Shown here one piece after another: positions 5,768 through 35,985 of a DNA stretch of 64,000 bases. The translations under genes and the position numbers were made by a program. Every line of letters starts with the position of its first letter. Position 1 is the stretch's first letter. The DNA is from Candidatus Fermentithermobacillaceae bacterium (GTDB lineage: Bacteria; Bacillota; Sulfobacillia; Fermentithermobacillales; Fermentithermobacillaceae). Location of the stretch: positions 26,421 through 90,420 of the forward strand of contig DULO01000031.1 in the NCBI GenBank assembly GCA_012840345.1, in the 5' to 3' direction. The notes below the pieces were generated by a model. It saw only the letters and a program-made list of their open reading frames with translations. It made no database searches and was not told where the DNA came from.

Positions 5768-6916
5768 CTAAAAACCTCCACAAAGTCCGCATTGAGCGCA
5801 GGATGGGTTGGAAAACGCGTATATGGCCTTGTTGTTCAAGAGTTGGTCGCAGGTCGCGTTTCTCGTGAGTCTCAAGGGAAGGAGCGCGCCTCCGGCCAAC
5901 GCCAGCGCTCCCATAACCGCCGACGCGGGAAAAGCCGCGGCCGGAACCGGCGCGGAAAGCCCGAGCTTGCACAGGGCAAACCCAATGACGAGCCCAACCG
6001 GGATCCCCGCGTACCCCAGGTACCAGCATTCAGCCAGGACGAGCCTCCTCAAGTCCGGCCGTGTGGCGCCAATCACTTTTAAGATACCCAACGCGCGTTT
6101 TCGTCCCAGGAAGGATACGGCTAGCACGCACGACACCGCGGACGCCGCCGTAAGGGCTACCATGACCGACACCGCCTGCCAGGGCAGATATGCTCTTAGC
6201 GCTGCCTTTCTGACGATGTGCCGGGTAAAACCATCCATGAACACCTTGGCTCCGGGATAGCTTCTGGACAGTTTGATGACCCGGGACAGGACGACGCTCG
6301 GGTCTCCCGTAACGTCAAAGGCGATCCCCGAAAGGTTTTCATGGCCTAGCGAGTCCGTCGATACCCATGCCCACCCCTCCGGATACTCACCTTCCGGCAG
6401 GTATTCACCGGTAGACCGGACCGTCCAGGTGCCTAACAAGCTCCCAGTGTCCGCGTCCCACACCTCAAGGCTTGAGCCCTCGCCGGCTTCTTTGGCCAAC
6501 GCCGGGCCGCACAGGAGGGTCCCCCTTTCCACCGAATCCAGGGCTCCGAGTACGAACAACGGCCCCAGCCGGGTGTCGGCGTTTACCCAAGGAAACCTCC
6601 TCAAGTTCGCGATGCCTTCGAAGCCCTCGGCTTCTTCCAGGGCCGAGACCGCTTCCTCGGCTGAGTCAAATATGATAATGGCTCCGGCAGGCAAGGACGG
6701 GGTAGCGACCTCTCTAGCCGCCGCGTCGCCGTTTTGAGAGACCATACAGACTACGGCCATGGAAGCCGCCACAGTAAGCGCCACTGACAAAGCCACAACA
6801 GCCGCCGCGCCGATCTCCCGCCTCAAGCGCCTCTTAGACATCAGCCTGGCCATCGACCAAGACAGCGCGGGCCGCAACCTCTCAGCCTGGGGGAGAAGCG
6901 CTCTACTTTTTGGCAT
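5768..6916 (-). CDS. ABC transporter permease, FtsX/MacB-like (4TM + extracytoplasmic domain)
   Basis: 382 aa with an N-terminal TM, a ~220-aa extracytoplasmic domain and C-terminal LKVIGATRPDLRRLVLAECWYLGYAG...TM helices, typical of FtsX-type permeases. Its start overlaps the ATPase gene stop. Confidence 0.7.
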   Translation of the reverse strand: MPKSRALLPQAERLRPALSWSMARLMSKRRLRREIGAAAVVALSVALTVAASMAVVCMVSQNGDAAAREVATPSLPAGAIIIFDSAEEAVSALEEAEGFEGIANLRRFPWVNADTRLGPLFVLGALDSVERGTLLCGPALAKEAGEGSSLEVWDADTGSLLGTWTVRSTGEYLPEGEYPEGWAWVSTDSLGHENLSGIAFDVTGDPSVVLSRVIKLSRSYPGAKVFMDGFTRHIVRKAALRAYLPWQAVSVMVALTAASAVSCVLAVSFLGRKRALGILKVIGATRPDLRRLVLAECWYLGYAGIPVGLVIGFALCKLGLSAPVPAAAFPASAVMGALALAGGALLPLRLTRNATCDQLLNNKAIYAFSNPSCAQCGLCGGF

Positions 6917-7610
6917 TCAGGACCTTCCTCTCGACGATCTCGCCGTCGGACAGGCGGATAAGCGTATCCGCGTAGTCCAAAAAACCGTCCTCGTGGGTAA
7001 CCACCACAAAGGTCTGTCCTTCCTCTTGGTTGAAGCGCTTAAACAGCTTCATTATCTCCTGGGACATCTTTGAATCCAGGTTTCCGGTAGGTTCGTCGGC
7101 CAGCACGATGGAAGGCCTGGGAGCCAGCGCCCGGGCTATGGCGACTCTCTGCTGCTCACCGCCGCTAAGCTCCACCGGGTAATGGTTCGCCCGGGCCGTC
7201 AACCCGGTAACCTCAAGAAGATGCATGACCCGGGACATGATGTCCCGCTCGTCCATCCGGGCTAGCCTCATGGGCATTCCGATGTTCTCGGCCGCGGTAA
7301 GTTCGGGCAAGAGGTTGAAGAACTGGAACACGATCCCCAACTCGCGGCGCCTCATCACCGCCAGGTCGTCCTCGCTCATTCTGGAGTACTTTCGGCCGTT
7401 TAGGAGGACCTCCCCGTGGGTGGGCCGGTCTATTCCGCCGAGTATGTTCAAGAGAGTGCTCTTGCCTGACCCGGACGGACCCATGATGACGACGAACTGT
7501 CCCCTCTCCACCTCAAGCTCTACGTTGGACAAGGCGAACAAGCCGTCGCCTACTGCATAGAACTTCGAGAGTTCGTGGCACGCGAGGATGGGTCCATGCC
7601 ATTCATTCAC
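6903..7610 (-). CDS. ABC transporter ATP-binding protein (MacB/LolD-type)
   Basis: 235 aa with Walker A GPSGSGKST, the LSGGEQQRVAIARAL signature and Walker B IVLADEPTGNLD. Confidence 0.85.
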   Translation of the reverse strand: MNEWHGPILACHELSKFYAVGDGLFALSNVELEVERGQFVVIMGPSGSGKSTLLNILGGIDRPTHGEVLLNGRKYSRMSEDDLAVMRRRELGIVFQFFNLLPELTAAENIGMPMRLARMDERDIMSRVMHLLEVTGLTARANHYPVELSGGEQQRVAIARALAPRPSIVLADEPTGNLDSKMSQEIMKLFKRFNQEEGQTFVVVTHEDGFLDYADTLIRLSDGEIVERKVLNAKK

Positions 7611-9069
7611 GCTTCAACACCTCCGCGCTGGGAACCCGCGCCGCCCACAGACCTACCGCCGTACCCAGGGCCAACGATATTCCCAAAGACATGCCGAAGA
7701 CCGAGATGAAGTCTATGAACGTAAGTTTGATCCACTCGGCGGCCGTAATCTCTGAGGCCAAGAGCGACCACAACGAAAGGACTTTTGCCGCTAAGAACCC
7801 TATGGCTGCTCCCGCGGCCGCGACGTATCCGACAATAGTCAGCACGTAGACCACGACATCTTTGCCTGTGGCGCCAATAACCCGTAAGAGGCCTATCTTT
7901 CTCTTCTGCTGGACCAGCATGATGTAGGAACTCCCGGCCACGATAACGCCGGAAAGCATAAAACCCTGAACCTGAAGAAGCCCGCCGGCGTCGAGCCCTT
8001 GGAACCTAAGAGCTGACCCCGATACCTGGAGTTTCTTGAGTTCAGGCACGGGGCAGACCTGAAAACCTTCTCCCAACTTCTCTTGAATCCCGGACGCTAT
8101 CGCCTTTGCCTCGGACATGCGGTCAACCGATATCAGGAGCTCATAGGTAGGCAGTTGGTTCAAATCCACAGCCGCCTGGGTTTGAGCCAGGATCTCCTGA
8201 AACGTCTCTTTGGTAACGAAAACCTCCGGCCTATCCCAAAAGCGCGCCTCTTCGCCGGGTGCCGGGAACTCGGGCAAAGCGGTGGCATCAGGTTCCAGTA
8301 CCTGGTTGGTGTTCACCCGGTACTTGCCGGATACTTCAAGCACAACCGAAGCCCCGTTGTCCCAATCCAGCCCGAGCCCGAAAGCACCCCCAACAAGTCG
8401 CGCGGGGTCTTTGGAAGAAGGCGCGGGGTTCACGACCAACCGCGGCACTCGAACCGGAACAGACGAGCCTACGAGGTTGTACTCAAGTCCTCCGAAGTTA
8501 GGGAAGAGAGCCTCCATTCCGGAGCCGGCCGCAGGCCCAGGATACTCGCCTTCCACGATGAAGCGGGCCATAGAAAGGGGAAAGCTCTCAGCATCCAAAG
8601 CGTCTCTCGCTCTTAGAATGGCCTGGACCGAACCCACCAAGCACGGCAAGGATACATAAGGTTCGACACGGGTTACGCCGGGGACGTCTTTGATCAGGTC
8701 CATTACTTCGCGTGGGTCAAAGGCGCGCCAACCTAAAGACCCTTCCGATATATAGCCTTCTTGAGAAAGCCGGTGAAAGTAGTAGAGCGCGTGGGACTGC
8801 CAATCCCGTCCCTCCCACGGTTTCACAGTGAGGTTTGCGCCGTTTCGGGACTCTACCCGGCTTGACAGTGGCAAGACGACCAGGTCGCCTCCGATAAACG
8901 CCCTTTCCGCCTGGCCAACGCCCCACGGATAACCCCGGGGGATCATGTGGGACACAACAAGCATCCACGCGGCAAGAGCGGTCGCGGCCAAAGCGACGCC
9001 GGTCCTGGTCCAGTTTCGCTTTATCTCGTTTCTGCCGAGGCGGATTAGGTCCAAAGCCCCACCCTCCAA
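7603..9069 (-). CDS. ABC transporter permease, FtsX/MacB-like with large extracytoplasmic domain
   Basis: 488 aa. TTG start. N-terminal TM, a ~300-aa extracytoplasmic domain and C-terminal LLRVIGATGKDVVVYVLTIVGYV...FtsX-type helices. Confidence 0.7.
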   Translation of the reverse strand: MEGGALDLIRLGRNEIKRNWTRTGVALAATALAAWMLVVSHMIPRGYPWGVGQAERAFIGGDLVVLPLSSRVESRNGANLTVKPWEGRDWQSHALYYFHRLSQEGYISEGSLGWRAFDPREVMDLIKDVPGVTRVEPYVSLPCLVGSVQAILRARDALDAESFPLSMARFIVEGEYPGPAAGSGMEALFPNFGGLEYNLVGSSVPVRVPRLVVNPAPSSKDPARLVGGAFGLGLDWDNGASVVLEVSGKYRVNTNQVLEPDATALPEFPAPGEEARFWDRPEVFVTKETFQEILAQTQAAVDLNQLPTYELLISVDRMSEAKAIASGIQEKLGEGFQVCPVPELKKLQVSGSALRFQGLDAGGLLQVQGFMLSGVIVAGSSYIMLVQQKRKIGLLRVIGATGKDVVVYVLTIVGYVAAAGAAIGFLAAKVLSLWSLLASEITAAEWIKLTFIDFISVFGMSLGISLALGTAVGLWAARVPSAEVLKRE

Positions 9070-9236
9070 TCACACCAATTCCGTATTCTTGGAGGATCTC
9101 CTTCTCGACAATTGCTGACATTGACATTCTACGAGTTTACAAGGGAAAAGGTGCCCACAGAGACTTGCTCGCAGCAATGCGCGGGGTGTCTTGAGGCACA
9201 ATGCCTCGGCTCCGTTTACGCCAGCAATCTTGCGAG

Positions 9237-9265
9237 GTAATACTGTACTGCTACGTAAACGTCAA
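9237..9265 (-). promoter_or_regulatory. Putative sigma-A-type promoter for the FtsX-ATPase-FtsX-GlmL-barrel operon
   Basis: Minus strand: TTGACG (9265..9260), a 17-nt spacer, then TATTAC (9242..9237). A GAGGCA-caat-TGCCTC hairpin sits in the predicted leader (9193..9209). The element lies between the XRE-TPR gene stop and the permease start. Confidence 0.3.
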
Positions 9266-9279
9266 GCGTTGGTGACAGG

Positions 9280-11247
9280 CTATGTTATCTTGGAGCGGGC
9301 CCACCGGCCCCTCTCGAGCATCACGCCGGCAAGGTCGTCTCCTTGGGAGTACAGGTGCTCTCCATAGGCCTCACAAGCGAGGCCCTCCAGGAAGGGATCG
9401 GAAAACAAACGGGAATCCCTGATAGCTTCCGCGAAATGGCGGTTGGCGGCGACAACGCTTCCGAAACGAGCCTCGGCCTCCCCCAAAGCCACGGAGGACA
9501 CTACTCTGCCTTCTTCATCGCCCAGGGCGTGAAGCGACGTCCACGCCGCGCGCGCCCTTTCCAGAAGGTCCTCTCCATTCTCTTGAAGCCTTAGCGCGCA
9601 CCTTACGGCCCACGCCTCGGCCAAGCACTCTCGCTCTCTATCGCTAAGTCCCCGGGAAAACGCCTTCACAAGCTCCAGTTGCCGCAGGGCTTCGGCGTAC
9701 GCTCCTTCACGGAACCTGACCTTGGCGATTTGCAGCCTCGTCCACGCCTCGGTGGAAGTGTCCCTACCTTCCGAAAGAGCCAGAGCCCTGTTCAGCGAAG
9801 TGACGCTCCTGCCAAGTTCGCCTTTTCGGTAAAAGGCGCGCCCGAGCCCCAATAGAGCGTGAGCCATTAGCGACTGATCTCTTAGTTTTGTAGCTTCGCT
9901 TAGGGCTTCCTCGAACTCCGCCTGGGCGTTTGTGAGCTGCCCTTTCTTAAGGAGTAAGTACGCGAGATCTATACGGGCCCGGGCGGTAAGGCCCGTGTCT
10001 CCCTCTGAAGCTCTAAGGGCTTTCTCCAGGGCTTCTTGGGCTTTTTCAGGCATTCCGAGCCTGGAGTAGAGGCCGCCGGCCACCGACAACCCCATGACAA
10101 GGTCCCTTCGCTTGGAGGTCCTTTCCCAATACGACAGGTTTCGTTCCTGGTATACCAGAGCCTCCTCTAAGTCTCCCAAGTTCGAGCATACGGTGACCAT
10201 CATTTGATACGCTACGGACCTTTGGTCGGGATCTGTCCTTAGGACGGCGTCCAGCGAAAGGACTACCTTCAACCTTTCTTTGGCTACTCTCCACCATCCG
10301 AGGCTCAAAGACTTCTCCGCCGACGCTCTGTACCAGGTCCTCGCCTTGGACAAGTCCTGGGCATCCAAATACAGCTGGGCCAAGATATCCGGGTCCGTAT
10401 CGGGGTACTTCTCCTCAAGGTACCGGGCCAGCGAACAAAGAGCCTCACGACGCGGTTCCAGCGGCACCCACGTCTTTAGGACTGAAGCCGGCACCCTTTC
10501 CGAGAGGCGGACGACCCCGTCCCCCGAAGACGTGGGGACGAGGGAAGCTATCCCTGCCGTGGACAGAGATTCCAACGCCCTAAGCACGCACTGGACGGGC
10601 AAGGCCGTGGCCGCCTCAAGGTACTCCAAAGGCACCTCCCGAAATATGCCTGCCAAACTGCCGAGAACCGCTCCCACGCGCCTTTCGGGAACTCCCAATT
10701 GGTGCTCGGGAATAAGAGCGCGGCCCTCCTGTTCCATCGTCTCGCCTTTAGCGGCCGCCTTGGACGCTTGCCACCGCGCGATAGTGTTCCGCAAGACGCT
10801 GCCCAGGCGGCGTACCTCGGCGTCAGTGAGGGTGTTGACCTCACGGTAAAAAGCGGCGACTAGATAGGGGTCGGTAAGATTCAGGGAGTTCAGGAAGTCT
10901 TCAAATGCCCCTGTATCCCGGACGTCCACGGGCTCTTGAAGCCCGTGCGTCTCCCGCGACCCGACATGCCCCGCCTCTTGGGGCTCAGGAGCGGTCGTGA
11001 CGTCTGAAACCTCCTCGTCCAAAGGCATGTAGAGGCTGGACACCGACACGTCAAGCGCCAAAGCCAGAGCGTCCTTGTGATGATCGCTCAGGTTTTCCCT
11101 CTCGCCCGAAAGGATCAATGAAAAATACGAGGGACTCAGGCCGGCCATCTCGGCCAGCTCCTTTACTTTCAATCCCCGTTCTTTCATGAGCCTCTTTATG
11201 TTGTTGCGGAAAAGCTCGCTTGACTTCATCGGCATCGCCGGCATCAC
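9280..11247 (-). CDS. XRE-family HTH + TPR-repeat transcriptional regulator
   Basis: 655 aa. The N-terminal LKVKELAEMAGLSPSYFSLILSGER is an HTH_XRE motif, and the C-terminal half holds multiple Ala/Leu-rich TPR-like repeats. The true start may be the internal MKSSELF at ~11229. Confidence 0.7.
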   Translation of the reverse strand: MMPAMPMKSSELFRNNIKRLMKERGLKVKELAEMAGLSPSYFSLILSGERENLSDHHKDALALALDVSVSSLYMPLDEEVSDVTTAPEPQEAGHVGSRETHGLQEPVDVRDTGAFEDFLNSLNLTDPYLVAAFYREVNTLTDAEVRRLGSVLRNTIARWQASKAAAKGETMEQEGRALIPEHQLGVPERRVGAVLGSLAGIFREVPLEYLEAATALPVQCVLRALESLSTAGIASLVPTSSGDGVVRLSERVPASVLKTWVPLEPRREALCSLARYLEEKYPDTDPDILAQLYLDAQDLSKARTWYRASAEKSLSLGWWRVAKERLKVVLSLDAVLRTDPDQRSVAYQMMVTVCSNLGDLEEALVYQERNLSYWERTSKRRDLVMGLSVAGGLYSRLGMPEKAQEALEKALRASEGDTGLTARARIDLAYLLLKKGQLTNAQAEFEEALSEATKLRDQSLMAHALLGLGRAFYRKGELGRSVTSLNRALALSEGRDTSTEAWTRLQIAKVRFREGAYAEALRQLELVKAFSRGLSDRERECLAEAWAVRCALRLQENGEDLLERARAAWTSLHALGDEEGRVVSSVALGEAEARFGSVVAANRHFAEAIRDSRLFSDPFLEGLACEAYGEHLYSQGDDLAGVMLERGRWARSKIT

Positions 11248-12405
11248 CTAACCCCGGTCTCTCAGAAGGATATTTGATACGGGAACCAAGAGCGTCTCAC
11301 CGGTTTCCGTCGCCACCTTAGCCCCCGGTAACAGGAGGTCGTTTTCGAGCTTCAACTCAGGCAGGATCTCCACCACCGTGCCTTCTTTCACGGCGGTTGT
11401 GAGGCCTAGGACGCTGACCCTGTCCCCAAGTCCGAGCTCTCCCAGGCGGCATACGGGTTTTTCGGCCTCCTTGGCGACGGCTCCGCCGTTCAGCGGGATG
11501 ACGACCGCGGGCTCATCCGACCCGTTTCCGCCTCCGTCTATGTAGACCGGGTTGCCCTCGCTCTCGGCCAAAAGGGCGAACGCTTCGCCGCCCATGGGCG
11601 AGTCTCCATAGCCCTCGGTTACCACCAATGCCGGTACAATCTCGCTGGGAGAAGGCTCCAAATCCCGGTTCTTGGCGTCCCTTGCCCAATATCTGGCCAG
11701 GAACTCGTCCCAGTCCAAAGACCCTGCAAGGTCCGAGTACCACTCAAATAACCCGCGGCTCACGCTGCCCGCGATGATGCCGGAAACCCTGAACCTTAGG
11801 CAAGCTTCTAGGACTTCTTTGGACACGGAACGGCCGGCAACTATCACTTTCCCCGCGTCGTCCGCCGTGAAGTCCCTGGCGCTTAACTTGTCCGACGGAG
11901 TCTTCGCCTTCATGGAAAGCACCCCCGCCCGACCGTAGCCGGCACCAACAGAAGCCTTAACCAGGTTGCCGTACGTTCTGACCCACACTCCCCTGGCTTC
12001 GTCGGTTTTCTCGACGATTCCGGGAAGGCGGCAATACAAGCTCACCGGCGCTTCCTTGATGGCAATCGAGCCTATGGAAGGAATGAGGGCTACCACTTCC
12101 CCATCACAAGGCGCTGTGTACTCGGTGTATCCCAGCCCAAAGAAGTATGAGTAGTACGCCAGCACCTCGCCGCGCTTTACCTTTTGGCCTTCTTGGACCA
12201 GAACCGTCGCCGAAAAACCTTCTCCCGACGATTCCACCCTGACTTGCCTGAGCCTTCTCCGAGAAGCGTACGTGCCTGCTAGTGTATCCCACGTGACCTC
12301 CGACCCGACGTCTACTTGGGGCTCGCCGATGGAACCAAAGGCCCTTAAGCGCACAATTGGGGTATTGCGGGCAACTCGGGGTTCGTTGAGGGCGTAAAGC
12401 GTCAT
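11248..12405 (-). CDS. Hypothetical cytosolic hybrid-barrel protein (paralog B of 2525..3937)
   Basis: 385 aa with VKRGEVLAYY...YTAPCDGEVVALI, ALVVTEGYGDSPMGGEAFALLAE and C-terminal LGDRVSVLGL...GTVVEILPEL. These blocks are colinear with paralog A. Its start overlaps the stop of the upstream GlmL-like gene (ATGA), and its stop abuts the XRE-TPR start. Confidence 0.6.
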   Translation of the reverse strand: MTLYALNEPRVARNTPIVRLRAFGSIGEPQVDVGSEVTWDTLAGTYASRRRLRQVRVESSGEGFSATVLVQEGQKVKRGEVLAYYSYFFGLGYTEYTAPCDGEVVALIPSIGSIAIKEAPVSLYCRLPGIVEKTDEARGVWVRTYGNLVKASVGAGYGRAGVLSMKAKTPSDKLSARDFTADDAGKVIVAGRSVSKEVLEACLRFRVSGIIAGSVSRGLFEWYSDLAGSLDWDEFLARYWARDAKNRDLEPSPSEIVPALVVTEGYGDSPMGGEAFALLAESEGNPVYIDGGGNGSDEPAVVIPLNGGAVAKEAEKPVCRLGELGLGDRVSVLGLTTAVKEGTVVEILPELKLENDLLLPGAKVATETGETLLVPVSNILLRDRG

Positions 12406-14132
12406 TGACCTCTCCCCCTCTCCCAGCCTGATAGAACTTGCTCGGGGAAGACGCCAAGGTTCCTGTACCAGCCTATGATTTCACGGGGAGAGATTCTCTC
12501 CAGGGTTCTAAGCTGCGGCCTGGGGCGTCCGTCCACATAAATCCGGGAAAAGCCGGGCGGAAGATCCCGCACGGTCTTTCGTCCGGGTCCCTCGCCCAAG
12601 TCTTCTTGGCGTGAAGGGTCCAACGTGATTTCCACGGCGGAACCATTTGCGATGGGAACTAACGTTATCTCGCCCATACTCACGGGCAGCTGCTCGTACG
12701 TCCCGTCCAATCTCGCCGAGGCCCATCCCGCGCCGACGCGGTCTCTGTCTTCGCCGGGGGCGACCAGGACGGCCAGAGGCAAGAGACTCTCCAGTATGTT
12801 TGCGCTTCCGGAAGGAAGCAGGCCGGCTACCTGCAGCGCGTTGCAAGTATCAAGGTAGACGCCCACGCCTCCCGCGACCTGCGCGCCGTCCATAACCAAA
12901 GACAGGACCGCTTCCCGGGAAAGGACCCGGGACAGGACGCCGGTCACGACTATCCGCCTCAAGGTAGGCATCTTCAAGAGCGTATCCCCGCCCGAGACTT
13001 CCACTTGGAAAGTCTCCCCTACCTGTCTTTGCCGGTGCACGCCGCGAAGTTCTATGGCGGTGGCCTTATGCTCGGCGATACCTTCCCTTATGGCTTCTTT
13101 CCAAACCGCGAGAAAGACCGATAACTCGTTCCAAGTGGTGGGCAAAACGTGCGGCCGGAGTACCAGGTTGCCTATGAAATCGCCCAGGTTTTCCGCCATT
13201 TGAGGGTGAGGAAGCCATTTGGCCACTTTGTTGGGGTTTACCTTGGCGACCGGGGTCACGGTTCTGGTGAACACTCCCTTGATGCCGGAGAAGACCTGCA
13301 CCGCGTCGCCGTCCAGGGACAGGCCCAAGACGTTCTCGCCCGTTTCCTCGTAGAGCCCCTCGAAAGCAAGGCCCGCCGCGTACCCCGACGGGAAGACTTC
13401 CGGCAAACCCAGCTTGCCTAGACCTTGGAACTTAGGGTCAGAGCGCACGTTTTCCGAAAACGAGCCTACGACCGCGTCGCGCGCTGAAGCTAAGTGCTCT
13501 TCCTCGAGCTTTGCCCTAACGTTGTCGGCCCAGATTATCTCGATATCCCCCAGGATCCTGGCCACTTCCTCCCGGGCTTCTTGAGAACCCGCGTAGACCA
13601 GGGGAATCCTGTCATCGCTCCATCCTTTCTTGGGCAACCCTTTGGCTAGGACTCTGGCGATGTTGAGGATCTGATGGGTTCCGGACTCCATAATTTCCTC
13701 GTCTACCCCGCCGGCCATGACGGCGACGGACACATCCTGGCGGCGCAAGTCCGAAATCCTCTCGAAATCCTGGCGGCCGTCATCGACGCAAACCAGATCG
13801 GTCACAGTGGCGCCGGCCAACAAAGCGGCTCTCTTGGCGGATTCCCCCGAGATGCCCTTGACTACTCCCGCGCATACCGCCTTGGGTTCCCCGCCTGCGC
13901 TAAGGGTCACCATGACGCCTTCATTCTCGTAAGAGGACTTGTCCTCTGACATTCGGGATCCGATGACGTCCAGTACCTCGCCCAACCCCAAAGTTCGTTC
14001 ATCTTTGCTCGCCGGCGGCGGAGTGGGACAGGAAACGCGCTCTAGCTGGACAATCCTGCCGCCCTCGATAGCCAGGGCGCGGGCTTCGGTAACCGTACTG
14101 CCTACGTCTATATGAAAGATACTCTTGGTCAT
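12402..14132 (-). CDS. GlmL/MutL-family (EutA-like) ASKHA-fold protein, paralog B
   Basis: The start is ATG MTKSIFHIDVGSTVTEARALA at 14132. This was chosen over the listed longer ORF because the ATG sits 1 nt after the upstream ATPase stop. ~576 aa, same family motifs as paralog A. Confidence 0.65.
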   Translation of the reverse strand: MTKSIFHIDVGSTVTEARALAIEGGRIVQLERVSCPTPPPASKDERTLGLGEVLDVIGSRMSEDKSSYENEGVMVTLSAGGEPKAVCAGVVKGISGESAKRAALLAGATVTDLVCVDDGRQDFERISDLRRQDVSVAVMAGGVDEEIMESGTHQILNIARVLAKGLPKKGWSDDRIPLVYAGSQEAREEVARILGDIEIIWADNVRAKLEEEHLASARDAVVGSFSENVRSDPKFQGLGKLGLPEVFPSGYAAGLAFEGLYEETGENVLGLSLDGDAVQVFSGIKGVFTRTVTPVAKVNPNKVAKWLPHPQMAENLGDFIGNLVLRPHVLPTTWNELSVFLAVWKEAIREGIAEHKATAIELRGVHRQRQVGETFQVEVSGGDTLLKMPTLRRIVVTGVLSRVLSREAVLSLVMDGAQVAGGVGVYLDTCNALQVAGLLPSGSANILESLLPLAVLVAPGEDRDRVGAGWASARLDGTYEQLPVSMGEITLVPIANGSAVEITLDPSRQEDLGEGPGRKTVRDLPPGFSRIYVDGRPRPQLRTLERISPREIIGWYRNLGVFPEQVLSGWERGRGQ

Positions 14133-14133
14133 C

Positions 14134-14838
14134 TCAGCCCTCCCGTGCCATTCCTCCGTCGTATACGCGGGTGATGCGCCCGTCGAGCATCTCCACAACC
14201 CGGTGCGCCCACCTGGTGATCGAAGGATCATGTGAAACCACGACAAAGGTCTGGCCTCTTTCTACATTGAGTCTGTGGAAGATCTCGCCGATCTCCGACG
14301 AAGTCTTGGAGTCCAGATTCCCGGTTGGCTCGTCGGCCAGCACTATCGCGGGTTGGTTGGCCAAGGCCCTGGCGATAGCCACTCGCTGCTGCTCCCCTCC
14401 GGATAGCTCTAAAGGCTTGTGATCTTGCCTTTGGCCTAGGCCTACTTGAACCAAGAGCTCTCTCGCCCGTTCAGTCATGGCCTTCTTGCTCATTCCGCCA
14501 AACCTCATGGGCAACATCACGTTCTCGAGCGCTGTGAAGTGGGCTATGAGGTTAAAGAACTGGAACACGAACCCGACCTTGTTCCGCCTGATCCGGGCCA
14601 GACCGCTTTCGGAAAGCTGGGAGTATCTCTGGCCGTCCAGGATGACATCCCCGCTCTGGGGCCTGTCTAACCCTCCCAAGAGCCCAAGGAGCGTGCTCTT
14701 GCCGCTGCCCGAGGGGCCCATCAAAACGATGAATTCGCCGCGGTCCACTACCAGGTTCACGTCGTTGACCGCGTAGATTGTCTGTCCCAAGTGAAAGGAT
14801 TTCTTGAGGTTCACTGTCCTCAGGATAGGCTCATCCAA
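14134..14838 (-). CDS. ABC transporter ATP-binding protein (MacB/LolD-type), second copy
   Basis: 234 aa with GPSGSGKST, LSGGEQQRVAIARAL and IVLADEPTGNLD. It is a paralog of 6903..7610. Confidence 0.85.
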   Translation of the reverse strand: MDEPILRTVNLKKSFHLGQTIYAVNDVNLVVDRGEFIVLMGPSGSGKSTLLGLLGGLDRPQSGDVILDGQRYSQLSESGLARIRRNKVGFVFQFFNLIAHFTALENVMLPMRFGGMSKKAMTERARELLVQVGLGQRQDHKPLELSGGEQQRVAIARALANQPAIVLADEPTGNLDSKTSSEIGEIFHRLNVERGQTFVVVSHDPSITRWAHRVVEMLDGRITRVYDGGMAREG

Positions 14839-14902
14839 TGGGAATACCCCCGCGTGGTTACTAAGTGACGCTTTTCACTATCCCGGTAGTTACTTCTTCG
14901 CA

Positions 14903-14986
14903 GGACACCCATATCCTTTCCGAGAATGCTTCGGGAACAGTAGGATCCCCTGGATAAAGGAGGTTCCCGGCAGGATACGGGTGTCC
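14903..14986. promoter_or_regulatory. Nested inverted-repeat (structured) element in the M20-ABC intergenic region
   Basis: Outer 14-bp arms GGACACCCATATCC (14903..14916) and GGATACGGGTGTCC (14973..14986) are reverse complements with 1 mismatch. Inner 7-bp arms are CGGGAAC (14932..14938) and GTTCCCG (14963..14969). The element lies in the leader of the ABC-ATPase/GlmL operon, or acts as a terminator of the M20 gene. Confidence 0.3.
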
Positions 14987-14998
14987 TCGTTCCCGTAC

Positions 14999-16204
14999 TT
15001 ATCCTTGGACTTTCTTTCTCAGGTACTCCTTGGCTTCGGCCAACAACTCGGGCTCCAGCAGGAGGTCCACGGCGCACAATGACAAGACCGAAGCGGCGTC
15101 CACGGTGGCGTCGATACCCTGGTCCGTGACGGTAGCGTCGGCCATGTCGGTCGAGTGGCCCCTGGCGTCGCCGATCCTGAAGCCGATTTGAATGGACGGA
15201 GTAACCCACGTTACGTTGCCGACATCGGTAACTCCGCCTCCGCCTCCGGTCTCCTGATTAAGCTCGTGCCCTATGTACTCAAAGTTCTTGCGGGCCAGTT
15301 CTTTCAGCACAGGGTGTTCCAGAGTGTCCCGGAATAGGTTTTCGTGATGCCGGAACTCCACGGTGGTTCCATTGGCCAACGCGGCGCCCTCCGCGCATCT
15401 CTTCACCCTGGGAATGATCACGTCCTCGAGGTAGCGCCAATCGGTGCAGCGCAAGGTGAACCTCATGACCGCCTTATCGGGGATGATGTTCTGAGCGTCT
15501 CCGCCGTGGGTGATGATGCCCGCGATCCTTACATCGTCTCTCAGGCTATGCCGGAGGTTGCGGATGGCGATGTAAGCTTGAACGCAGGCGTCTAGGGCGT
15601 TTATGCCGCCTTGAGGGTTGCCGCCCGCGTGGGCCGAGCGCCCGTGAAACGTGATCTCTATGGGGTGGGAAGCCCACGCCACGCCGCCGCCCACCGAGTC
15701 ACGCTGGCCGGGATGGGCGATAAACGCGGCGTCTATATCGTCAAAGACTCCCTGCTCGGACATGATTACTTTGCCTCCGACAGTCTCCTCGGCCGGCGTG
15801 CCCAACACTATCCATGACGGGCCGCCATCAGAAAGGCTTCCGGCAGGAATGACGGAACTGCAGGCGATGCCGGCCGCGACCGCGCAGGCCGCCATCAAGT
15901 TGTGACCGCACCCGTGTCCTATGGCCGGGAGCGCGTCGTACTCCGCCATGAACGCTATGGCAGGTTTGCCTGTTCCCTTGCGCGCGAAGAATGAGGTGGG
16001 TAGCCCCGCCAATCCCCGTTCCACCTGAAAGCCGTTCTCTTCAAGGATCCCGACAAGTTTGTCAGCCGCGAAGTACTCGTTGAGCCCCGTCTCAGGATGC
16101 TCGTAGAGGGACACCGCGATGTCAGAAACAAGAGGCCTAAGTACTTTTGCCGTCTCGACAATCTGCTTCCGAATCCGGTCTCTGTCACACGCTTCTTTTT
16201 TCAA
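14999..16204 (-). CDS. M20-family amidohydrolase / peptidase (aminoacylase-hippuricase-like)
   Basis: 401 aa with AIGHGCGHN metal-binding motif and the ArgE/DapE/ACY1/CPG2/YscS-type M20 dimerisation-domain layout. Confidence 0.75.
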   Translation of the reverse strand: MKKEACDRDRIRKQIVETAKVLRPLVSDIAVSLYEHPETGLNEYFAADKLVGILEENGFQVERGLAGLPTSFFARKGTGKPAIAFMAEYDALPAIGHGCGHNLMAACAVAAGIACSSVIPAGSLSDGGPSWIVLGTPAEETVGGKVIMSEQGVFDDIDAAFIAHPGQRDSVGGGVAWASHPIEITFHGRSAHAGGNPQGGINALDACVQAYIAIRNLRHSLRDDVRIAGIITHGGDAQNIIPDKAVMRFTLRCTDWRYLEDVIIPRVKRCAEGAALANGTTVEFRHHENLFRDTLEHPVLKELARKNFEYIGHELNQETGGGGGVTDVGNVTWVTPSIQIGFRIGDARGHSTDMADATVTDQGIDATVDAASVLSLCAVDLLLEPELLAEAKEYLRKKVQG

Positions 16205-16250
16205 TTATTTACCTCCTCCGGTCTCCGGGTCGAATGTCGGTCCCTAGGGC

Positions 16251-17597
16251 TTACACTCCCAAAAAAGTGGCCGCCAGGAGCCAAATCGCTTCTCCCCGGG
16301 TGACGCCGGTATCGCCGGCTTCTCGGGAACGCTTTAGAACCAAGGCTTTTCTTCTCGCGCATTCCTCCTCGTTTATGCTGAGATTGGAGATCACGTCCAA
16401 GCAAGCCTCCATGATGTCTTTCCTATCTACTCTCTTCGACTCACCGGAAAACCTTCCCGCCCGGCCCTTGGCAGCCATCCGCTGAGAGATGACTTGGAAC
16501 AGGCCGCGGTCGGAAGCGTCTTCGAGTTTCGAGTTTCTTTGGGCGGCGTACGGGACTCCGGCCGGAACGGACATCAGGTTTAGCTCACGGACCGTAATCG
16601 GCTTCGAGGGGCGGACCCGGTTGTCCGCGTAGGTCACTATGTATCCGGCGCGCAAGAGGGCTTCCGCCGCGGGATACAGGGGATCGTCAGGGGGCAAGTC
16701 GGTGAACTGGGACATTTTAAGAAGCTCGGAGACGGTAACGACCTCGTAGCCGTAGGCCTTCAACACCGCCAGCTGCCGCTTAAGCCCAAAAGGCGCGGGC
16801 GCTTCCGAGGACATGTTGTAACCGTCTTTGTGAAAGATTATGGAACCGTTAAGGCAGTCCGGATCGTTGGATAGAGCTTCTTCCAACGGTCGGACCATGT
16901 TTTCCACGTCTCTTTGGAAGTCGCCTGTGGAAGCCTGCCACCCGCCTCCGTCAAAGCTGGCTCCCAAGTACATGTAGCCCAGAGCACGGTACGCGTCGTA
17001 GGCGTCGTAGCCTCCCAAGATCCGGTCGATATAGTGGGGCGGCCTGCCCAGCTCCATTTTCACGCCGCAAAGGGACAAGACGAAGTCATCCAGCGCCCTA
17101 AGGTCCTCTACCACCGCGTCGAAACTTGGGAGAAACCCGCGGAACGCGTAAGGGTACTTGTTGGGGCCAAAGGCGGCGTGGCTGAACCCGTGGTTGGAAA
17201 GCTGGTGGCCCTCGGCGACTATGCGTTTCACGAGGTCAGGCTGGTTTACGGCGCCTCCAAGGTGGTCTTGCCCAAACTCAGGATAGTGGTCGTACCTTAC
17301 CCCATTCCAGTACGGGCCGCCGTTCTTCCCTTTCGTGTCCGGATACTTGAACTTGGTGGAGCCGATAATGTCAAAAGTGCCCTTAGCGCCAGCTTCCTTA
17401 AGCGTCTCAAGGATGGATAAAGTGAGAGGTTCGGGCCCCGGCCGGGCGGGGCCCGCGCAAGGCCCGTCGTCAAAGGTTATGGCCACTACCCTCCGCCCGG
17501 GCACGGGAGCCACCCGGTCTATCCTTCTCACCGGGCCGATTTTCTGCGACAGGCGGTAGTTCTTCAGTTTTCTGTATATTTCTCTAGGCCCTTGCAT
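16251..17597 (-). CDS. Polysaccharide deacetylase (NodB/CE4 domain) protein with C-terminal SLH-like segment
   Basis: 448 aa. AITFDDGP...TFDIIG is a NodB motif. A C-terminal FTDLPPDDPLYPAAEALLRAGYIVTYADNRVRPSKPITVRE resembles an S-layer-homology motif. Confidence 0.65.
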   Translation of the reverse strand: MQGPREIYRKLKNYRLSQKIGPVRRIDRVAPVPGRRVVAITFDDGPCAGPARPGPEPLTLSILETLKEAGAKGTFDIIGSTKFKYPDTKGKNGGPYWNGVRYDHYPEFGQDHLGGAVNQPDLVKRIVAEGHQLSNHGFSHAAFGPNKYPYAFRGFLPSFDAVVEDLRALDDFVLSLCGVKMELGRPPHYIDRILGGYDAYDAYRALGYMYLGASFDGGGWQASTGDFQRDVENMVRPLEEALSNDPDCLNGSIIFHKDGYNMSSEAPAPFGLKRQLAVLKAYGYEVVTVSELLKMSQFTDLPPDDPLYPAAEALLRAGYIVTYADNRVRPSKPITVRELNLMSVPAGVPYAAQRNSKLEDASDRGLFQVISQRMAAKGRAGRFSGESKRVDRKDIMEACLDVISNLSINEEECARRKALVLKRSREAGDTGVTRGEAIWLLAATFLGV

Positions 17598-18786
17598 GTC
17601 TTCTGAAAACTCCTCCCGTCAAGTGGATAAGTCCCGGCATTGGGTCCGAGAGGCTAAAGAGGCCGTCTCTTGGACGGTACTTGAGGAGGTCCCAAAGCCC
17701 CTTAGCGATGTAGCCGGCTCCGTTTCCGGGTAGACGCGAGTATTCGAACAGAGAGACGAAGTCGCCGGGGAAAAACCGCACCCTTACGCCGTCTTTCTGC
17801 CGCAAGGGAGCAATATCCTCCCCAAGGCAAGCGCGGTAATACAGAAGAGGAAAATCCACGCCTGCTTCAACAGCCAAAGCCAGGCTGCCCCAAAACCGCG
17901 GGTTCACCTCGAGAAAGCGGAACTTGCCGTCGAGGCCCCTCCTAAAGTCCAGCATGGCCATACCTCGCCAGTTGAGAGCCGAAAGCAAACGGTGGCTGTA
18001 GTCCACCAGCTCGGGGCAGTCCTCTGACACGCAATACACTGTGGGGCCAGCTCCCCTGGGCCTTTCACGTATGCTCCGGTAGGTAAACGAGGCAACCGGC
18101 CTTCCGTCCTTGTCGTAGAGGAGCGCGGCGCCGTAATCCTCGCCTGCCACGTATTCTTGGGCGATTGGAGCGGTTTGAACCGTTTCCATCTGACGGTACG
18201 CTTCCAATACTTCTTCCGGCGATGAGCACATTCGGTAACGTAAAGACGCGGGCAGCCCCGCGTCCTCGCCTGACCTGTATTTCAACATGACGGGGTAAGG
18301 AAGGTCTTGCGCCCACTTGAGCATGGCGGAGGCATCCCGGATGTCTACCCCGTTTTCCGCGGGCGAACTTGTTCGTGGGACCGGCACGCCCAGGCTTCGC
18401 GCCAGCTTTGTGCACCTCGCCTTGTCGTGGGCTTCTTCCAGGGCTGACGGTGTGGGGACCAGCGTTTTGGCCCGCCTCGCGATCTTAGGCTCGTCCCAAG
18501 ACATTTTAAACACGGCCGGGGTAAAGACGGGCACGAGCACTCCCCCTTCTCCCGCCGCCTCCAGCAGGGTTTCGACATCGGCGTCGGAGAGAGCGGTTTT
18601 GGCGCCGCGGCCGAGATTGACACTAGACTTGACATACTTGGAATGGAAGGCAAGCGGCCTGGGGGTGTCAGCCGCCTCGGCGGCGACAACATGTATCCCA
18701 GCCCGGCCCAGGGACCGGGCGATAGTAACCGCTATGCGAAGCCTCGCGTCGGTCACCACTGCCTTGGGTTTCTCGTAAACCGCCAT
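17584..18786 (-). CDS. ATP-grasp domain carboxylate-amine ligase
   Basis: 400 aa with an ATP-grasp core (PVMLKYRSGEDAG...EYVAG...MLDFR...FLEVNPRF). It overlaps the deacetylase start by 14 nt, as in an operon. Confidence 0.65.
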   Translation of the reverse strand: MAVYEKPKAVVTDARLRIAVTIARSLGRAGIHVVAAEAADTPRPLAFHSKYVKSSVNLGRGAKTALSDADVETLLEAAGEGGVLVPVFTPAVFKMSWDEPKIARRAKTLVPTPSALEEAHDKARCTKLARSLGVPVPRTSSPAENGVDIRDASAMLKWAQDLPYPVMLKYRSGEDAGLPASLRYRMCSSPEEVLEAYRQMETVQTAPIAQEYVAGEDYGAALLYDKDGRPVASFTYRSIRERPRGAGPTVYCVSEDCPELVDYSHRLLSALNWRGMAMLDFRRGLDGKFRFLEVNPRFWGSLALAVEAGVDFPLLYYRACLGEDIAPLRQKDGVRVRFFPGDFVSLFEYSRLPGNGAGYIAKGLWDLLKYRPRDGLFSLSDPMPGLIHLTGGVFRRHARA

Positions 18787-18900
18787 GCTCCACTCCCTTT
18801 AGTTGATTCTACCGATACCGGATGCCCCAGTCCACCAAAGCCAATTGGCACTACAATTGGGTCGTTGACACTCAATTATTCCGGTGTTAAACTCCATTAA

Positions 18901-35908: not shown

Positions 35909-35985
35909 TGGTGCGCCCGGCGCGATTCGAACGCGCAACCTCTGGCTCCGGAGGCCAACACTCTATCCGATTGAGCTACGGGCGC
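35909..35985 (-). tRNA. tRNA-Arg (anticodon CCG)
   Basis: The reverse complement folds as a cloverleaf: acceptor GCGCCCG/CGGGCGC, D-arm, anticodon stem TTGGC/GCCAG with loop CTCCGGA (anticodon CCG), T-arm GCGCG-TTCGAAT-CGCGC, discriminator A and encoded CCA. Confidence 0.85.

What the first reader, a model, noticed from the sequence alone, without database searches (positions are those of the whole stretch)
5768..18786. Possible biosynthesis/export island: ATP-grasp ligase, NodB deacetylase (with SLH-like motif), M20 amidohydrolase, two MacB-type ABC systems and an XRE-TPR regulator on one strand
All genes from 18786 down to 2525 run on the minus strand. The ATP-grasp and deacetylase genes overlap by 14 nt, and the M20 gene follows 46 nt later. 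A lone ABC ATPase follows and is translationally linked (1-nt spacer) to GlmL-like paralog B. A sigma-A-like promoter (TTGACG-17-TATTAC, 9237..9265) with a leader hairpin sits between the regulator and the FtsX-ATPase-FtsX genes. A peptide- or amide-forming ligase, a deacetylase and a deacylase combined with extracytoplasmic-domain FtsX permeases suggest synthesis or remodelling and export of a cell-envelope or secreted amide-linked product. FtsX-like permeases are also known to control wall hydrolases.
Basis: inference. Interest (0 to 1): 0.55.

Follow-up and report, generated by a model that had tools for sequence, protein, structure and literature searches.

The report
Modular ABC / GlmL-like ATPase gene block
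The twelve same-strand genes are real and stay together in related uncultured digester bacteria, but they look like three separate units rather than one make-and-export pathway, and the recurring theme is a widespread, unstudied ATPase-plus-partner gene pair wired here to FtsX-type ABC transporter parts.

Summary
The block is conserved: the full 12-gene order recurs in two other metagenome-assembled Bacillota at 49-80% protein identity, and large parts recur in five more. The host is probably related to class DTU015 / Ca. Fermentithermobacillia.

The block is modular. Spacing suggests three units:
- ATP-grasp, CE4 deacetylase and M20D amidohydrolase.
- An orphan MacB-type ATPase, a GlmL-like protein B, a barrel-sandwich partner B and the XRE-TPR regulator.

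These units occur separately in other genomes, and three relatives lack the block entirely. None of the three enzymes has a predicted signal peptide. The proposed promoter is not conserved, and the leader fold is no more stable than shuffled sequence.

The real core is the GlmL-like ATPase plus partner pair. It is adjacent in 56 of 70 loci across many bacterial and archaeal phyla, is sometimes fused into one protein, and carries no functional annotation. Pair B has lost the family's invariant nucleotide-binding motifs. FtsX2 carries an invariant cysteine-rich cytoplasmic tail.

The "biosynthesis plus export" reading is only partly supported. The mechanism remains inferred.

The parts
17584..18786 (-). 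ATP-grasp ligase (400 aa, COG3919-like / ATPgrasp_Ter). First gene of unit 1.
   Evidence: Pfam and NCBIfam hits. E293-x-N295 and K169 are invariant among 22 homologues. No TM segment.
18806..18834 (-). Promoter-like site TGGACT-17-TAGAAT upstream of the ATP-grasp gene, in the divergent IMPDH intergenic region.
   Evidence: Consensus scan, 9 of 12 matches. Function not shown.
16251..17597 (-). CE4/NodB-family deacetylase (448 aa) with a long C-terminal extension holding one SLH-like repeat. No signal peptide.
   Evidence: Pfam. The motifs TFDDG, HGFSH, RPPHY and IIFH can be read in the translation. No TM segment. It overlaps the ATP-grasp gene by 14 nt. Orthologues 42-49% identical sit next to distant ATP-grasp genes.
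14999..16204 (-). M20D amidohydrolase (401 aa).
   Evidence: TIGR01891 at 195 bits, above the cut-off of 154. Absent in L012, and present without ATP-grasp/NodB in L174.
14134..14838 (-). Orphan MacB/LolD-type ABC ATPase (ABC_B). First gene of unit 2.
   Evidence: ABC_tran 1.7e-34. 54% identical to ABC_A. It directly precedes GlmL_B in the window, L013, L174 and L175.
12402..14132 (-). GlmL-like ASKHA protein B (576 aa from the ATG at 14132). A degenerate paralogue.
   Evidence: PF13941 1e-37. 29% identical to A. It and 10 orthologues all lack the family-invariant nucleotide-binding motifs.
11248..12405 (-). Barrel-sandwich (BSH) partner protein B (385 aa). A degenerate paralogue.
   Evidence: 26% identical to partner A. 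It lacks the FGIGGE, TQIRAGVIRPE and PYFG motifs and keeps TEGFG, as do 7 orthologues. 4-nt overlap with GlmL_B.
9280..11247 (-). XRE-type HTH plus TPR regulator (655 aa). Last gene of unit 2.
   Evidence: Pfam HTH_3/HTH_26 and TPR_12. Spacer to partner B is 0-32 nt in the window and four relatives.
9165..9177 (.). Palindrome TTGCT-N3-AGCAA in the FtsX1 leader. Candidate operator.
   Evidence: TTGCT is invariant in 6 aligned leaders. Only exact copy in the window; two matches at up to one mismatch is within chance expectation. Function inferred.
9126..9131 (-). Conserved -10-like hexamer TAGAAT.
   Evidence: TA and the final T are invariant in 6 aligned leaders; the middle positions vary. No good -35 by eye. 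Inferred.
7603..9069 (-). FtsX-domain permease 1 (488 aa, extracytoplasmic domain of about 320 aa).
   Evidence: Pfam FtsX, TM profile, conserved C-terminus ...RIPxAEVLKRE.
6903..7610 (-). MacB/LolD/FtsE-type ABC ATPase (ABC_A).
   Evidence: ABC_tran 4.6e-35. Overlaps both FtsX genes, by 8 and 14 nt.
5768..6916 (-). FtsX-domain permease 2 (382 aa, extracytoplasmic domain of about 190 aa). It has an invariant Cys-rich cytoplasmic C-terminal tail at 5771..5857.
   Evidence: Pfam FtsX, 4 TM segments. Best PDB sequence match is YtrF, 2e-4. The tail ...CDQLLNN..SNPSCxxCGxCGG[FI] is near-invariant in the window and 6 orthologues.
3954..5750 (-). GlmL-like ASKHA ATPase A (598 aa), with all family motifs intact.
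   Evidence: PF13941 3e-116. Below all GlmL NCBIfam cut-offs. AF2 model pLDDT 82; nearest folds are hydantoinase/acetone-carboxylase ASKHA subunits. 17-nt spacer after FtsX2.
2525..3937 (-). BSH/KOW partner protein A (470 aa).
   Evidence: Weak RnfC_N and Biotin_lipoyl hits. AF2 model pLDDT 83. Foldseek gives only domain-level matches to sandwich-barrel hybrid and KOW domains. The family has 1121 clusters at E<=1e-10.
2253..2447 (+). Small PspC-domain membrane protein (64 aa), convergent with partner A.
   Evidence: ORF and sequence. A PspC gene sits in the same position in L008, L009, L010, L011, L174 and L175.

Best explanation
The locus is a modular, vertically inherited block in a variable slot between guaB (IMPDH) and the hpt-pur operon of an uncultured Bacillota lineage, probably related to DTU015 / Ca. 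Fermentithermobacillia. It probably contains three transcription units.

**Unit 3: FtsX1-ABC_A-FtsX2-GlmL_A-partner_A.**
- It encodes a heteromeric type VII (MacB/LolCDE/FtsEX-class) ABC mechanotransducer.
- Its genes are operonic with a cytoplasmic GlmL-like ASKHA ATPase and its barrel-sandwich/KOW partner, so the proteins probably interact physically.
- That two-protein module is ancient and widespread. In other phyla it sits with a different set of integral membrane proteins.
- I infer that the pair is a cytoplasmic ATP-using module that works at a membrane complex. In this lineage the complex is the FtsX transporter, possibly contacted through the invariant Cys-rich tail of FtsX2.

**Unit 2: ABC_B-GlmL_B-partner_B-XRE/TPR.**
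- It is a diverged copy in which both pair proteins have lost the family's invariant motifs.
- It is tied to an orphan ABC ATPase and a regulator.
- I infer a regulatory or scaffolding role, perhaps controlling unit 3 through the conserved palindrome in its leader.

**Unit 1: ATP-grasp-CE4 deacetylase-M20D.**
- It is a cytoplasmic enzyme set.
- The logic I infer is that the deacetylase frees an amine, the ligase acylates it, and the amidohydrolase reverses or trims the product.
- Its link to units 2 and 3 is confined to one clade, so it is optional.

**Shown:** gene content, spacing, synteny pattern, motif loss, fusions, topology.

**Inferred:** physical coupling, regulatory role, substrates.
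For: **Spacing.** The gaps define three tight groups (-14, 46 | 160 | 1, -4, 0 | 210 | -8, -14, 17, 16 nt).

**Synteny.**
- The whole order is conserved in L175. It is conserved up to a contig end in L013. Units 2 and 3 are conserved in L009, L010/L012, L016 and L018.
- Unit 3 alone occurs in L019 and L076, in other genomic contexts and at only 33-50% identity.
- Unit 2 without its regulator occurs in L174.
- The pair alone sits between guaB and hpt in L008 and L015 (L011 is cut upstream of the pair).

**The pair as a conserved module.**
- The GlmL-like gene lies directly upstream of the partner in 56 of 70 assessable loci from Bacteria and Archaea.
- Three proteins of about 1000 aa are natural fusions of the two.
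- Elsewhere the pair sits with DUF6754 and three further multi-TM proteins.

**Motifs.**
- The nucleotide-binding motifs are intact in A-type proteins across phyla and lost in the window's GlmL_B and all 10 orthologues.
- The partner B motifs are lost in parallel.

**Other features.**
- The FtsX2 tail is invariant.
- The leader palindrome and -10-like element are conserved.
- No predicted TM or signal segment in ATP-grasp, NodB, GlmL or partner proteins.
Against: - No experiment or transcript data exist. Operon boundaries are inferred from spacing only.
- Gene order around guaB...hpt-pur is conserved in this class generally, so part of the synteny may be inertia.
- Physical interaction of the pair with FtsX/ABC proteins is untested.
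- The pair exists without any ABC genes in most genomes: only 3 of 78 loci had FtsX hits.
- The Cys-rich tail has no demonstrated partner.
- Motif loss in pair B shows divergence, not a regulatory function.
- The palindrome occurs once and is not statistically unusual in the window.
- The substrates of the ATP-grasp, CE4 and M20 enzymes are unknown.
Confidence: 0.45

Rival explanations
1. All genes form one pathway. The ATP-grasp, deacetylase and M20 enzymes build or remodel an amide-linked envelope or secreted product. The two ABC systems export it under control of the XRE-TPR regulator.
For: - The complete 12-gene order is kept at 49-60% identity in L175 and, up to a contig end, in L013.
- ATP-grasp and GlmL_B homologues share contigs in at least five assemblies, judged from matching contig lengths.
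- The deacetylase has an SLH-like repeat.
Against: - The units occur separately. M20 and ABC_B are lost in L012.
- ATP-grasp and NodB have no predicted signal or TM segment, and M20's only hydrophobic stretch is internal to the domain.
- The SLH hit is single and fades in orthologues.
- FtsX/MacB-class permeases are not known as exporters of cytoplasmic products (own knowledge).
- The model gives no role to four of the twelve genes, the two GlmL/partner pairs.
Confidence: 0.2
2. Synteny without shared function. The units are unrelated genes that accumulated in a permissive slot between guaB and the pur operon. They stay together only because the lineages are related.
For: - The backbone guaB...PspC-hpt-purE is conserved across the class with different inserts.
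- L174 carries unrelated HTH/PIN/PD40/NTP-transferase genes in the same slot.
- Composition is uniform.
Against: - The five-gene unit FtsX-ABC-FtsX-GlmL-partner recurs outside this backbone in L019 and L076 at low identity.
- An ABC ATPase is joined to a GlmL/partner pair twice independently (A and B), with 1-17 nt spacers.
- The regulator is always 0-32 nt behind partner B.
Confidence: 0.2
3. An FtsEX-like wall-hydrolase controller. The FtsX-ABC-FtsX complex activates an extracytoplasmic peptidoglycan hydrolase or modifying enzyme. The GlmL/partner pair is only a co-regulated housekeeping module.
For: - FtsE is among the best NCBIfam matches of ABC_A (223 bits against a cut-off of 265).
- The best solved relative of FtsX2 is YtrF.
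- Both permeases have large extracytoplasmic domains.
Against: - No secreted hydrolase gene lies in the block. The NodB protein lacks a signal peptide.
- ABC_A is below the FtsE equivalog cut-off.
- The heteromeric permease-ATPase-permease layout is LolCDE-like rather than FtsEX-like (own knowledge).
Confidence: 0.12

Closest known systems
Type VII ABC systems (MacB, LolCDE, FtsEX, YtrEF/YknYZ of Bacillus)
   Same: - The ATPases match LolD, MacB and FtsE best.
- The permeases carry the FtsX domain with a 4-TM topology and a large loop between TM1 and TM2.
- The permease-ATPase-permease gene order matches lolC-lolD-lolE (own knowledge).
- The nearest solved sequence to FtsX2 is YtrF.
   Different: - All equivalog cut-offs are missed.
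- The extracytoplasmic domains match no Pfam family.
- There is no membrane-anchored adaptor protein.
- FtsX2 has an invariant Cys-rich C-terminal tail.
- The genes are operonic with a GlmL-like ATPase and a BSH/KOW protein.
- There is a second, permease-less ATPase.
GlmL/MutL accessory protein of glutamate (methylaspartate) mutase, and the GlmL-related ornithine-degradation protein
   Same: PF13941 domain over its full length (3e-116). ASKHA nucleotide-binding motifs.
   Different: - Below NF040745, NF040744 and TIGR01319 cut-offs.
- About 120 extra C-terminal residues.
- No mutase genes among the scanned neighbours.
- An obligate partner gene that true GlmL lacks.
Hydantoinase A / N-methylhydantoinase / acetone and acetophenone carboxylase ASKHA subunits
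   Same: - Best Foldseek matches of the GlmL_A model are 9h03, 5svc_B and 5l9w.
- Weak Hydantoinase_A Pfam hits.
- Like HyuA/HyuB, the two genes are adjacent or fused (the parallel is my own knowledge).
   Different: TM-scores are only about 0.3. The partner is not a Hydantoinase_B homologue.
Deacetylase-then-ligase logic of mycothiol and bacillithiol synthesis (MshB/MshC, BshB/BshC)
   Same: Analogy only, from my own knowledge. A cytoplasmic de-N-acetylase is encoded next to an ATP-dependent amide-forming ligase.
   Different: The enzyme families differ (CE4 instead of LmbE; ATP-grasp instead of Cys-tRNA-synthetase-like). There is no glycosyltransferase. Not tested.
Poly-gamma-glutamate and teichuronopeptide clusters
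   Same: Amide-forming ligase in a Bacillota envelope context.
   Different: No Mur-ligase-type PgsB/CapB domain, no PgsC/PgsA-like membrane proteins and no glycosyltransferases were detected among the 12 proteins.

Membership tests
Type VII (MacB/FtsX-class) ABC system | Cytoplasmic ABC ATPase of the LolD/MacB/FtsE subgroup | tested here: met
   ABC_tran at 1e-34 to 1e-35. The best NCBIfam matches are LolD, MacB, FtsE and DevA, although all are below equivalog cut-offs.
Type VII (MacB/FtsX-class) ABC system | FtsX-domain permease with 4 TM segments and a large extracytoplasmic loop between TM1 and TM2 | tested here: met
   Pfam FtsX is above its cut-off for both proteins (28.9 and 32.0 bits against 25.5). 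The hydropathy profile gives 4 TM segments in FtsX2 and 3 clear plus one weaker in FtsX1.
Type VII (MacB/FtsX-class) ABC system | Recognisable MacB-type periplasmic core domain (Porter/Sabre) | tested here: inconclusive
   No Pfam hit in either extracytoplasmic domain. No PDB sequence hit for FtsX1. No structure was predicted for them.
Tripartite MacAB-type pump (with adaptor such as MacA/YknX) | Membrane-anchored or secreted barrel-sandwich adaptor protein | tested here: not met
   The BSH proteins give only faint precomputed BSH_YknX/BSH_RND hits. They have no TM or signal segment.
GlmL (methylaspartate mutase accessory protein) family | Score above the NCBIfam glmL_fam / GlmL equivalog cut-offs | tested here: not met
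   GlmL_A scores 233 against 475, 215 against 600 and 173 against 204. GlmL_B scores 69, 56 and 57.
GlmL (methylaspartate mutase accessory protein) family | Encoded between or next to B12-dependent mutase subunits | tested here: not met
   None of the genes scanned between 918 and 24644 has a mutase or B12-binding domain. The same holds in the related loci.
CE4 / NodB polysaccharide deacetylase | Polysacc_deac_1 domain with the metal and catalytic motifs | tested here: met
   52.5 bits against a cut-off of 23.1. TFDDG, HGFSH, RPPHY and IIFH were read by eye in the translation.
SLH-anchored wall protein | Secretion signal plus SLH repeats able to bind the wall polymer | tested here: not met
   One SLH repeat only, at 26.9 bits. 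No signal peptide. The SLH hit is faint or absent in orthologues.
M20D amidohydrolase (TIGR01891) | Score above the curated subfamily cut-off | tested here: met
   195.3 bits against 153.75.
ATP-grasp carboxylate-amine ligase | ATP-grasp fold with conserved Mg/ATP residues | tested here: met
   ATPgrasp_Ter at 40.6 bits against 29.1. K169, E293 and N295 are invariant in 22 homologues. The substrate cannot be tested here.
Single biosynthetic/export gene cluster | All components co-occur as a unit across genomes | tested here: not met
   The full set occurs in the window and L175, and up to a contig end in L013. The units are separable in L012, L014, L019, L076, L113, L116 and L174.

The most novel reading that the evidence does not exclude
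The GlmL-like ASKHA ATPase plus barrel-sandwich/KOW partner is the cytoplasmic engine of a so far undescribed membrane-associated machine.
- It is found across many bacterial and archaeal phyla. There it is operonic with a small conserved protein, DUF6754 and three other multi-TM proteins.
- In one Bacillota lineage, probably related to DTU015, this engine has been re-coupled to a MacB/FtsX-type ABC mechanotransducer. The coupling may run through the invariant Cys-rich tail of FtsX2.
- The engine has also spawned an ATPase-dead regulatory copy tied to an orphan ABC ATPase and an XRE-TPR regulator.
Probability: 0.3. Interest if true: 0.8.

Novelty: new variant of a known kind. Interest (0 to 1): 0.5.

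Why it matters
- **Type VII ABC systems.** MacB, LolCDE and FtsEX are known to transmit ATP-driven movement to partners outside the membrane. Dedicated cytoplasmic accessory proteins of the kind seen here are not part of the known picture, as far as I know. If the coupling is confirmed, it would add a new input or output layer to that class.
- **An unannotated pan-prokaryotic family.** The GlmL-like/partner pair forms more than 1,100 clusters at 50% identity. It was found in at least 589 genome stretches from about 15 phyla, including Archaea. Every source annotation seen is "hypothetical", apart from generic labels such as "glutamate mutase L" and one "glycine cleavage system H" label. Its repeated linkage to membrane proteins makes its function testable.
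- **A natural control.** The motif-dead pair B offers a built-in separation-of-function comparison.
- **The enzyme trio.** The ATP-grasp/CE4/M20 trio on its own is an ordinary uncharacterised enzyme cluster.

Tried and rejected
**Literature.** Full-text searches for PF13941, DUF6754, GlmL and COG3919/ATPgrasp_Ter/PF15632 found nothing relevant. The GlmL hits were "g/ml" artefacts.

**Databases.**
- PADLOC: no defence-system match except generic HTH/TPR hits.
- Rfam at gathering threshold: no riboswitch or leader RNA in the region; the only hit is a tRNA at 35912.
- PDB by sequence: no relative of GlmL_A, partner A or FtsX1.
- Foldseek of the partner A model: only domain-level hits (NusG domain II, RNAP Si3, BesA, Spt5 KOW) and no whole-protein analogue.

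**Regulatory elements.**
- The palindrome TTGCT-N3-AGCAA is not repeated before units 1 or 2.

**Ideas considered and dropped.**
- The partner as a periplasmic adaptor. Rejected because it has no TM or signal segment.
- The partner as a biotin/lipoyl carrier. No MKM-type motif was seen by eye; not formally tested.
- DUF6754 and the other membrane neighbours being present in the window. tblastn found none.
- A recently acquired island. Composition is uniform and there are no mobility genes in the block.

**Limits.**
- Distant ATP-grasp homologues (80 metagenome loci) mostly gave no information on the cluster, because the contigs are short or the contexts unrelated.
- I could not see upstream of GlmL_B in L009, L016 and L018 because of flank or contig limits.

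Full report
**1. Observation**

The ORF map confirms an unbroken run of twelve minus-strand genes from 18786 to 2525. Pfam and NCBIfam confirm each assignment:

| Gene | Coordinates | Assignment |
|---|---|---|
| ATP-grasp | 17584-18786 | ATPgrasp_Ter / ATP-grasp_3 |
| NodB | 16251-17597 | CE4 deacetylase with one SLH-like repeat |
| M20 | 14999-16204 | M20D amidohydrolase, TIGR01891 above cut-off |
| ABC_B | 14134-14838 | ABC ATPase |
| GlmL_B | 12402-14132 | PF13941 MutL/GlmL-like protein |
| partner B | 11248-12405 | 385-aa protein without a significant Pfam hit |
| regulator | 9280-11247 | XRE-HTH plus TPR |
| FtsX1 | 7603-9069 | FtsX-domain permease |
| ABC_A | 6903-7610 | ABC ATPase |
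| FtsX2 | 5768-6916 | FtsX-domain permease |
| GlmL_A | 3954-5750 | second PF13941 protein |
| partner A | 2525-3937 | 470-aa protein with weak barrel-sandwich hits |

The spacers are exactly those reported: a 14-nt overlap, 46 nt, and 1 nt between ABC_B and GlmL_B. There are also two larger gaps, 160 nt before ABC_B and 210 nt before FtsX1.

- The proposed promoter TTGACG-17-TATTAC is in the sequence. It lacks the final T of the -10, is not reported by the consensus scan, and is not conserved.
- The 167-nt leader folds no better than shuffles (z = -0.69).
- No Rfam family matches the region.
- Composition is the same as in the flanks.

**2. Origin and conservation**

Identical proteins occur on sewage, bioreactor and digester metagenome contigs. 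The nearest named relatives are Ca. Fermentithermobacillaceae, of the uncultured class DTU015 / Ca. Fermentithermobacillia in Bacillota (PMC10215811 read).

The backbone CheR-CheX-DUF4015-guaB ... PspC-hpt-purE is shared with relatives. What lies between guaB and PspC varies:

- **Pair alone.** Only GlmL_A-partner_A lies between guaB and hpt in L008 and in Ca. F. carboniphilus (L015). L011 shows the pair next to hpt-purE, but its contig is cut upstream of the pair.
- **Full order.** All twelve genes are present in L175, at 49-55% identity. L013 shows the same order up to FtsX1, where the locus ends.
- **Partial loss.** L012/L010 has the same order minus M20, with only a 158-aa remnant of ABC_B.
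- **Units 2 and 3.** These are present in L009, L016 and L018. Their upstream sequence was out of reach.
- **Reduced unit 2.** L174 has only M20 plus ABC_B-GlmL_B-partner_B, interrupted by unrelated genes.
- **Unit 3 elsewhere.** L019 and L076 carry FtsX-ABC-FtsX-GlmL-partner in different contexts.
- **ATP-grasp elsewhere.** A 49%-identical ATP-grasp stands alone in L014. Two distant ATP-grasp genes are followed by a PHP phosphoesterase and an orthologue of this NodB protein, 42-49% identical, with no ABC or GlmL genes.

The block is nonetheless assembled from separable units.

**3. The conserved core**

Partner A belongs to a large family.
- The word-indexed search found 929 relatives.
- The exhaustive search found 1121 clusters at 50% identity with E<=1e-10.
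- A genome scan found at least 589 matching stretches.
- The record titles name Bacillota, Chloroflexota, Armatimonadota, Nitrospirota, Elusimicrobiota, Planctomycetota, WOR-3, Eisenbacteria and others. They also name Archaea: Methanomethylicia, Culexarchaeum, Bathyarchaeota and Thermoproteota.
- Where the partner protein carries a source name, it is "hypothetical protein" in all but one case, which reads "glycine cleavage system H lipoate-binding protein".

The pair behaves as one unit.
- In 56 of 70 loci with enough upstream sequence, a GlmL-like gene lies directly upstream on the same strand.
- Many Bacillota carry two or three tandem pairs.
- Three representatives of about 1000 aa are GlmL-partner fusions. 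This is a classic sign that the two proteins act together.

Outside Bacillota the pair is commonly followed or preceded by other conserved genes.
- These are a small conserved protein of about 120 aa, DUF6754, and three further proteins of about 216, 280 and 249 aa.
- Each occurs in 20-30 of the loci.
- DUF6754 and the three others have 2-5 predicted TM segments.
- None of them is encoded in the window.

**4. The two proteins**

*GlmL_A.*
- It matches PF13941 end to end but falls below all NCBIfam GlmL cut-offs.
- No mutase gene is nearby.
- Its AF2 model (pLDDT 82, pTM 0.85) resembles the ASKHA subunits of N-methylhydantoinase, acetone carboxylase and acetophenone carboxylase most closely. 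Sugar kinases, Hsp70, PilM and diol-dehydratase reactivase follow.

*Partner A.*
- Its AF2 model (pLDDT 83) is multidomain.
- Foldseek finds only sandwich-barrel-hybrid domains (NusG domain II, RNAP Si3, the adaptor BesA) and a C-terminal KOW-like domain.
- Neither protein has a TM segment.

**5. Pair B is degenerate**

GlmL_A-type proteins from Bacteria and Archaea keep near-invariant motifs: DxGSTTTK, SSAGGGLQM, GGTDGG, VDxGGATTDVFS, GSGGxLSHAP and NLGMSYS. The window's GlmL_B and its 10 orthologues carry SLDGDxVQVFS and T-GxLS instead. They lack NLGMSYS altogether and have a variable first motif.

Partner B and its seven orthologues have lost FGIGGE, TQIRAGVIRPE and PYFG but keep TEGFG.

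Pair B is 26-29% identical to pair A, while the two ABC ATPases are 54% identical. Wherever its upstream gene could be seen, pair B follows an ABC_B gene (a truncated remnant in L012). Everywhere except L174, the XRE-TPR regulator follows within 0-32 nt. I infer a non-catalytic, regulatory or scaffolding role. This is not shown.

**6. The ABC parts**

- Both ATPases match LolD, MacB and FtsE best, but below the equivalog cut-offs.
- The two permeases are very different from each other. They have the MacB/LolC-type topology, with extracytoplasmic loops of about 320 and 190 aa that match no family.
- The nearest solved sequence to FtsX2 is B. subtilis YtrF.
- FtsX2 ends in a cytoplasmic tail, R-N-A-T-C-D-Q-L-L-N-N-x-x-V-Y-x-x-S-N-P-S-C-x-x-C-G-x-C-G-G-F. 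The tail is essentially invariant in the window and six orthologues whose remaining sequence is only 33-63% identical. One of these orthologues has lost the whole extracytoplasmic domain. Four cysteines in this arrangement suggest a metal site or a docking element. That is inference.
- In the FtsX1 leader, six genomes share a TTGCT-N3-AGnAA palindrome (9165-9177). About 35 nt downstream of it they share a TAnnAT element (9126-9131).

**7. The enzymes**

- ATP-grasp and NodB have no predicted signal or TM segment. The single hydrophobic stretch in M20 lies inside the domain.
- The CE4 catalytic motifs can be read in the sequence.
- The ATP-grasp keeps its invariant Lys and E-x-N residues.
- Only the ATP-grasp-NodB coupling is old. 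M20 comes and goes.
- The single SLH-like repeat is unlikely to be a wall anchor in a protein with no export signal.
- The reaction logic (deacetylate, then acylate the freed amine; amidohydrolase as the reverse or trimming step) is inference from family chemistry. The substrate is unknown.

**8. Verdict**

A unified biosynthesis-export pathway is not supported.

The best-supported description is a three-unit modular block. Its organising theme is the coupling of MacB-type ABC components to an ancient, uncharacterised GlmL-like ATPase/partner pair. One copy of the pair is active and one is degenerate.

I rate it as a new variant of a known kind, with moderate interest. The more novel reading is that the pair drives an undescribed, widely distributed membrane machine. 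That reading remains open at roughly 0.3 probability.

Noticed in passing
window 5771..5857 (minus strand; C-terminus of FtsX2): A cytoplasmic tail, ...CDQLLNNxxVYxxSNPSCxxCGxCGG[FI]-stop, is almost invariant in the window and six orthologues that otherwise share only 33-63% identity. One of them (L175) has lost the extracytoplasmic domain. It may be a metal-binding or docking motif, and I am not aware of it in other FtsX-family proteins.
   Followed up: partly
L006 7794-16045 (Nitrospira) and about 20-30 other loci among L015-L093: Outside Bacillota, the GlmL-like/partner pair sits in a larger conserved gene set. The set comprises a small protein of about 120 aa, DUF6754 (2 TM), and proteins of about 216 aa (4 TM), 280 aa (2 TM) and 249 aa (5 TM), sometimes with a Memo-like protein. 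None of these has a described function.
   Followed up: partly
P0344, P0378, P0406: Natural fusion proteins of about 1000 aa, with the PF13941 GlmL-like domain at the N-terminus and the partner protein at the C-terminus.
   Followed up: yes
window 2253..2447 (+): A 64-aa PspC-domain membrane protein lies convergent with partner A. A PspC gene is conserved in this position in six related loci, whichever units are present upstream.
   Followed up: partly
window 9165..9177 and 9126..9131: The palindrome TTGCTGCGAGCAA and a TAGAAT -10-like element are conserved in the FtsX1 leader of six genomes.
   Followed up: partly
L012 3776-4252: In GCA_964565305.1 the orphan ATPase ABC_B is reduced to a 158-aa ORF (88% identical over the retained part) and M20 is missing. 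The rest of the block is intact.
   Followed up: yes
L113 909-1736; L116 10974-11900 and 8868-9776: In two distant metagenome contigs, a PHP-domain phosphoesterase lies between the ATP-grasp gene and the NodB orthologue. L116 also has a PIG-L/LmbE-type deacetylase upstream. Other homologues of this ATP-grasp are fused to low-molecular-weight phosphatase domains.
   Followed up: partly
L022-L030, L089 (Bacillota, including a Symbiobacterium thermophilum MAG, L029): Two or three tandem GlmL-like/partner pairs, one with the long and one with the short form of the partner, sit among housekeeping genes (YjeF, peptidases C26 and S58, TsaB/RimI/TsaD). A cultivable species may therefore be available for genetics.
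   Followed up: partly
window 8717..9127 (minus strand): A 136-aa ATG-started ORF in another frame overlaps the TTG start of FtsX1, just behind a strong GAAGGAGA Shine-Dalgarno-like sequence. It is probably spurious, but the true start of FtsX1 is not settled.
   Followed up: no
window 35912..35985 (minus strand): A tRNA gene, the only Rfam match in the 64-kb window.
   Followed up: no
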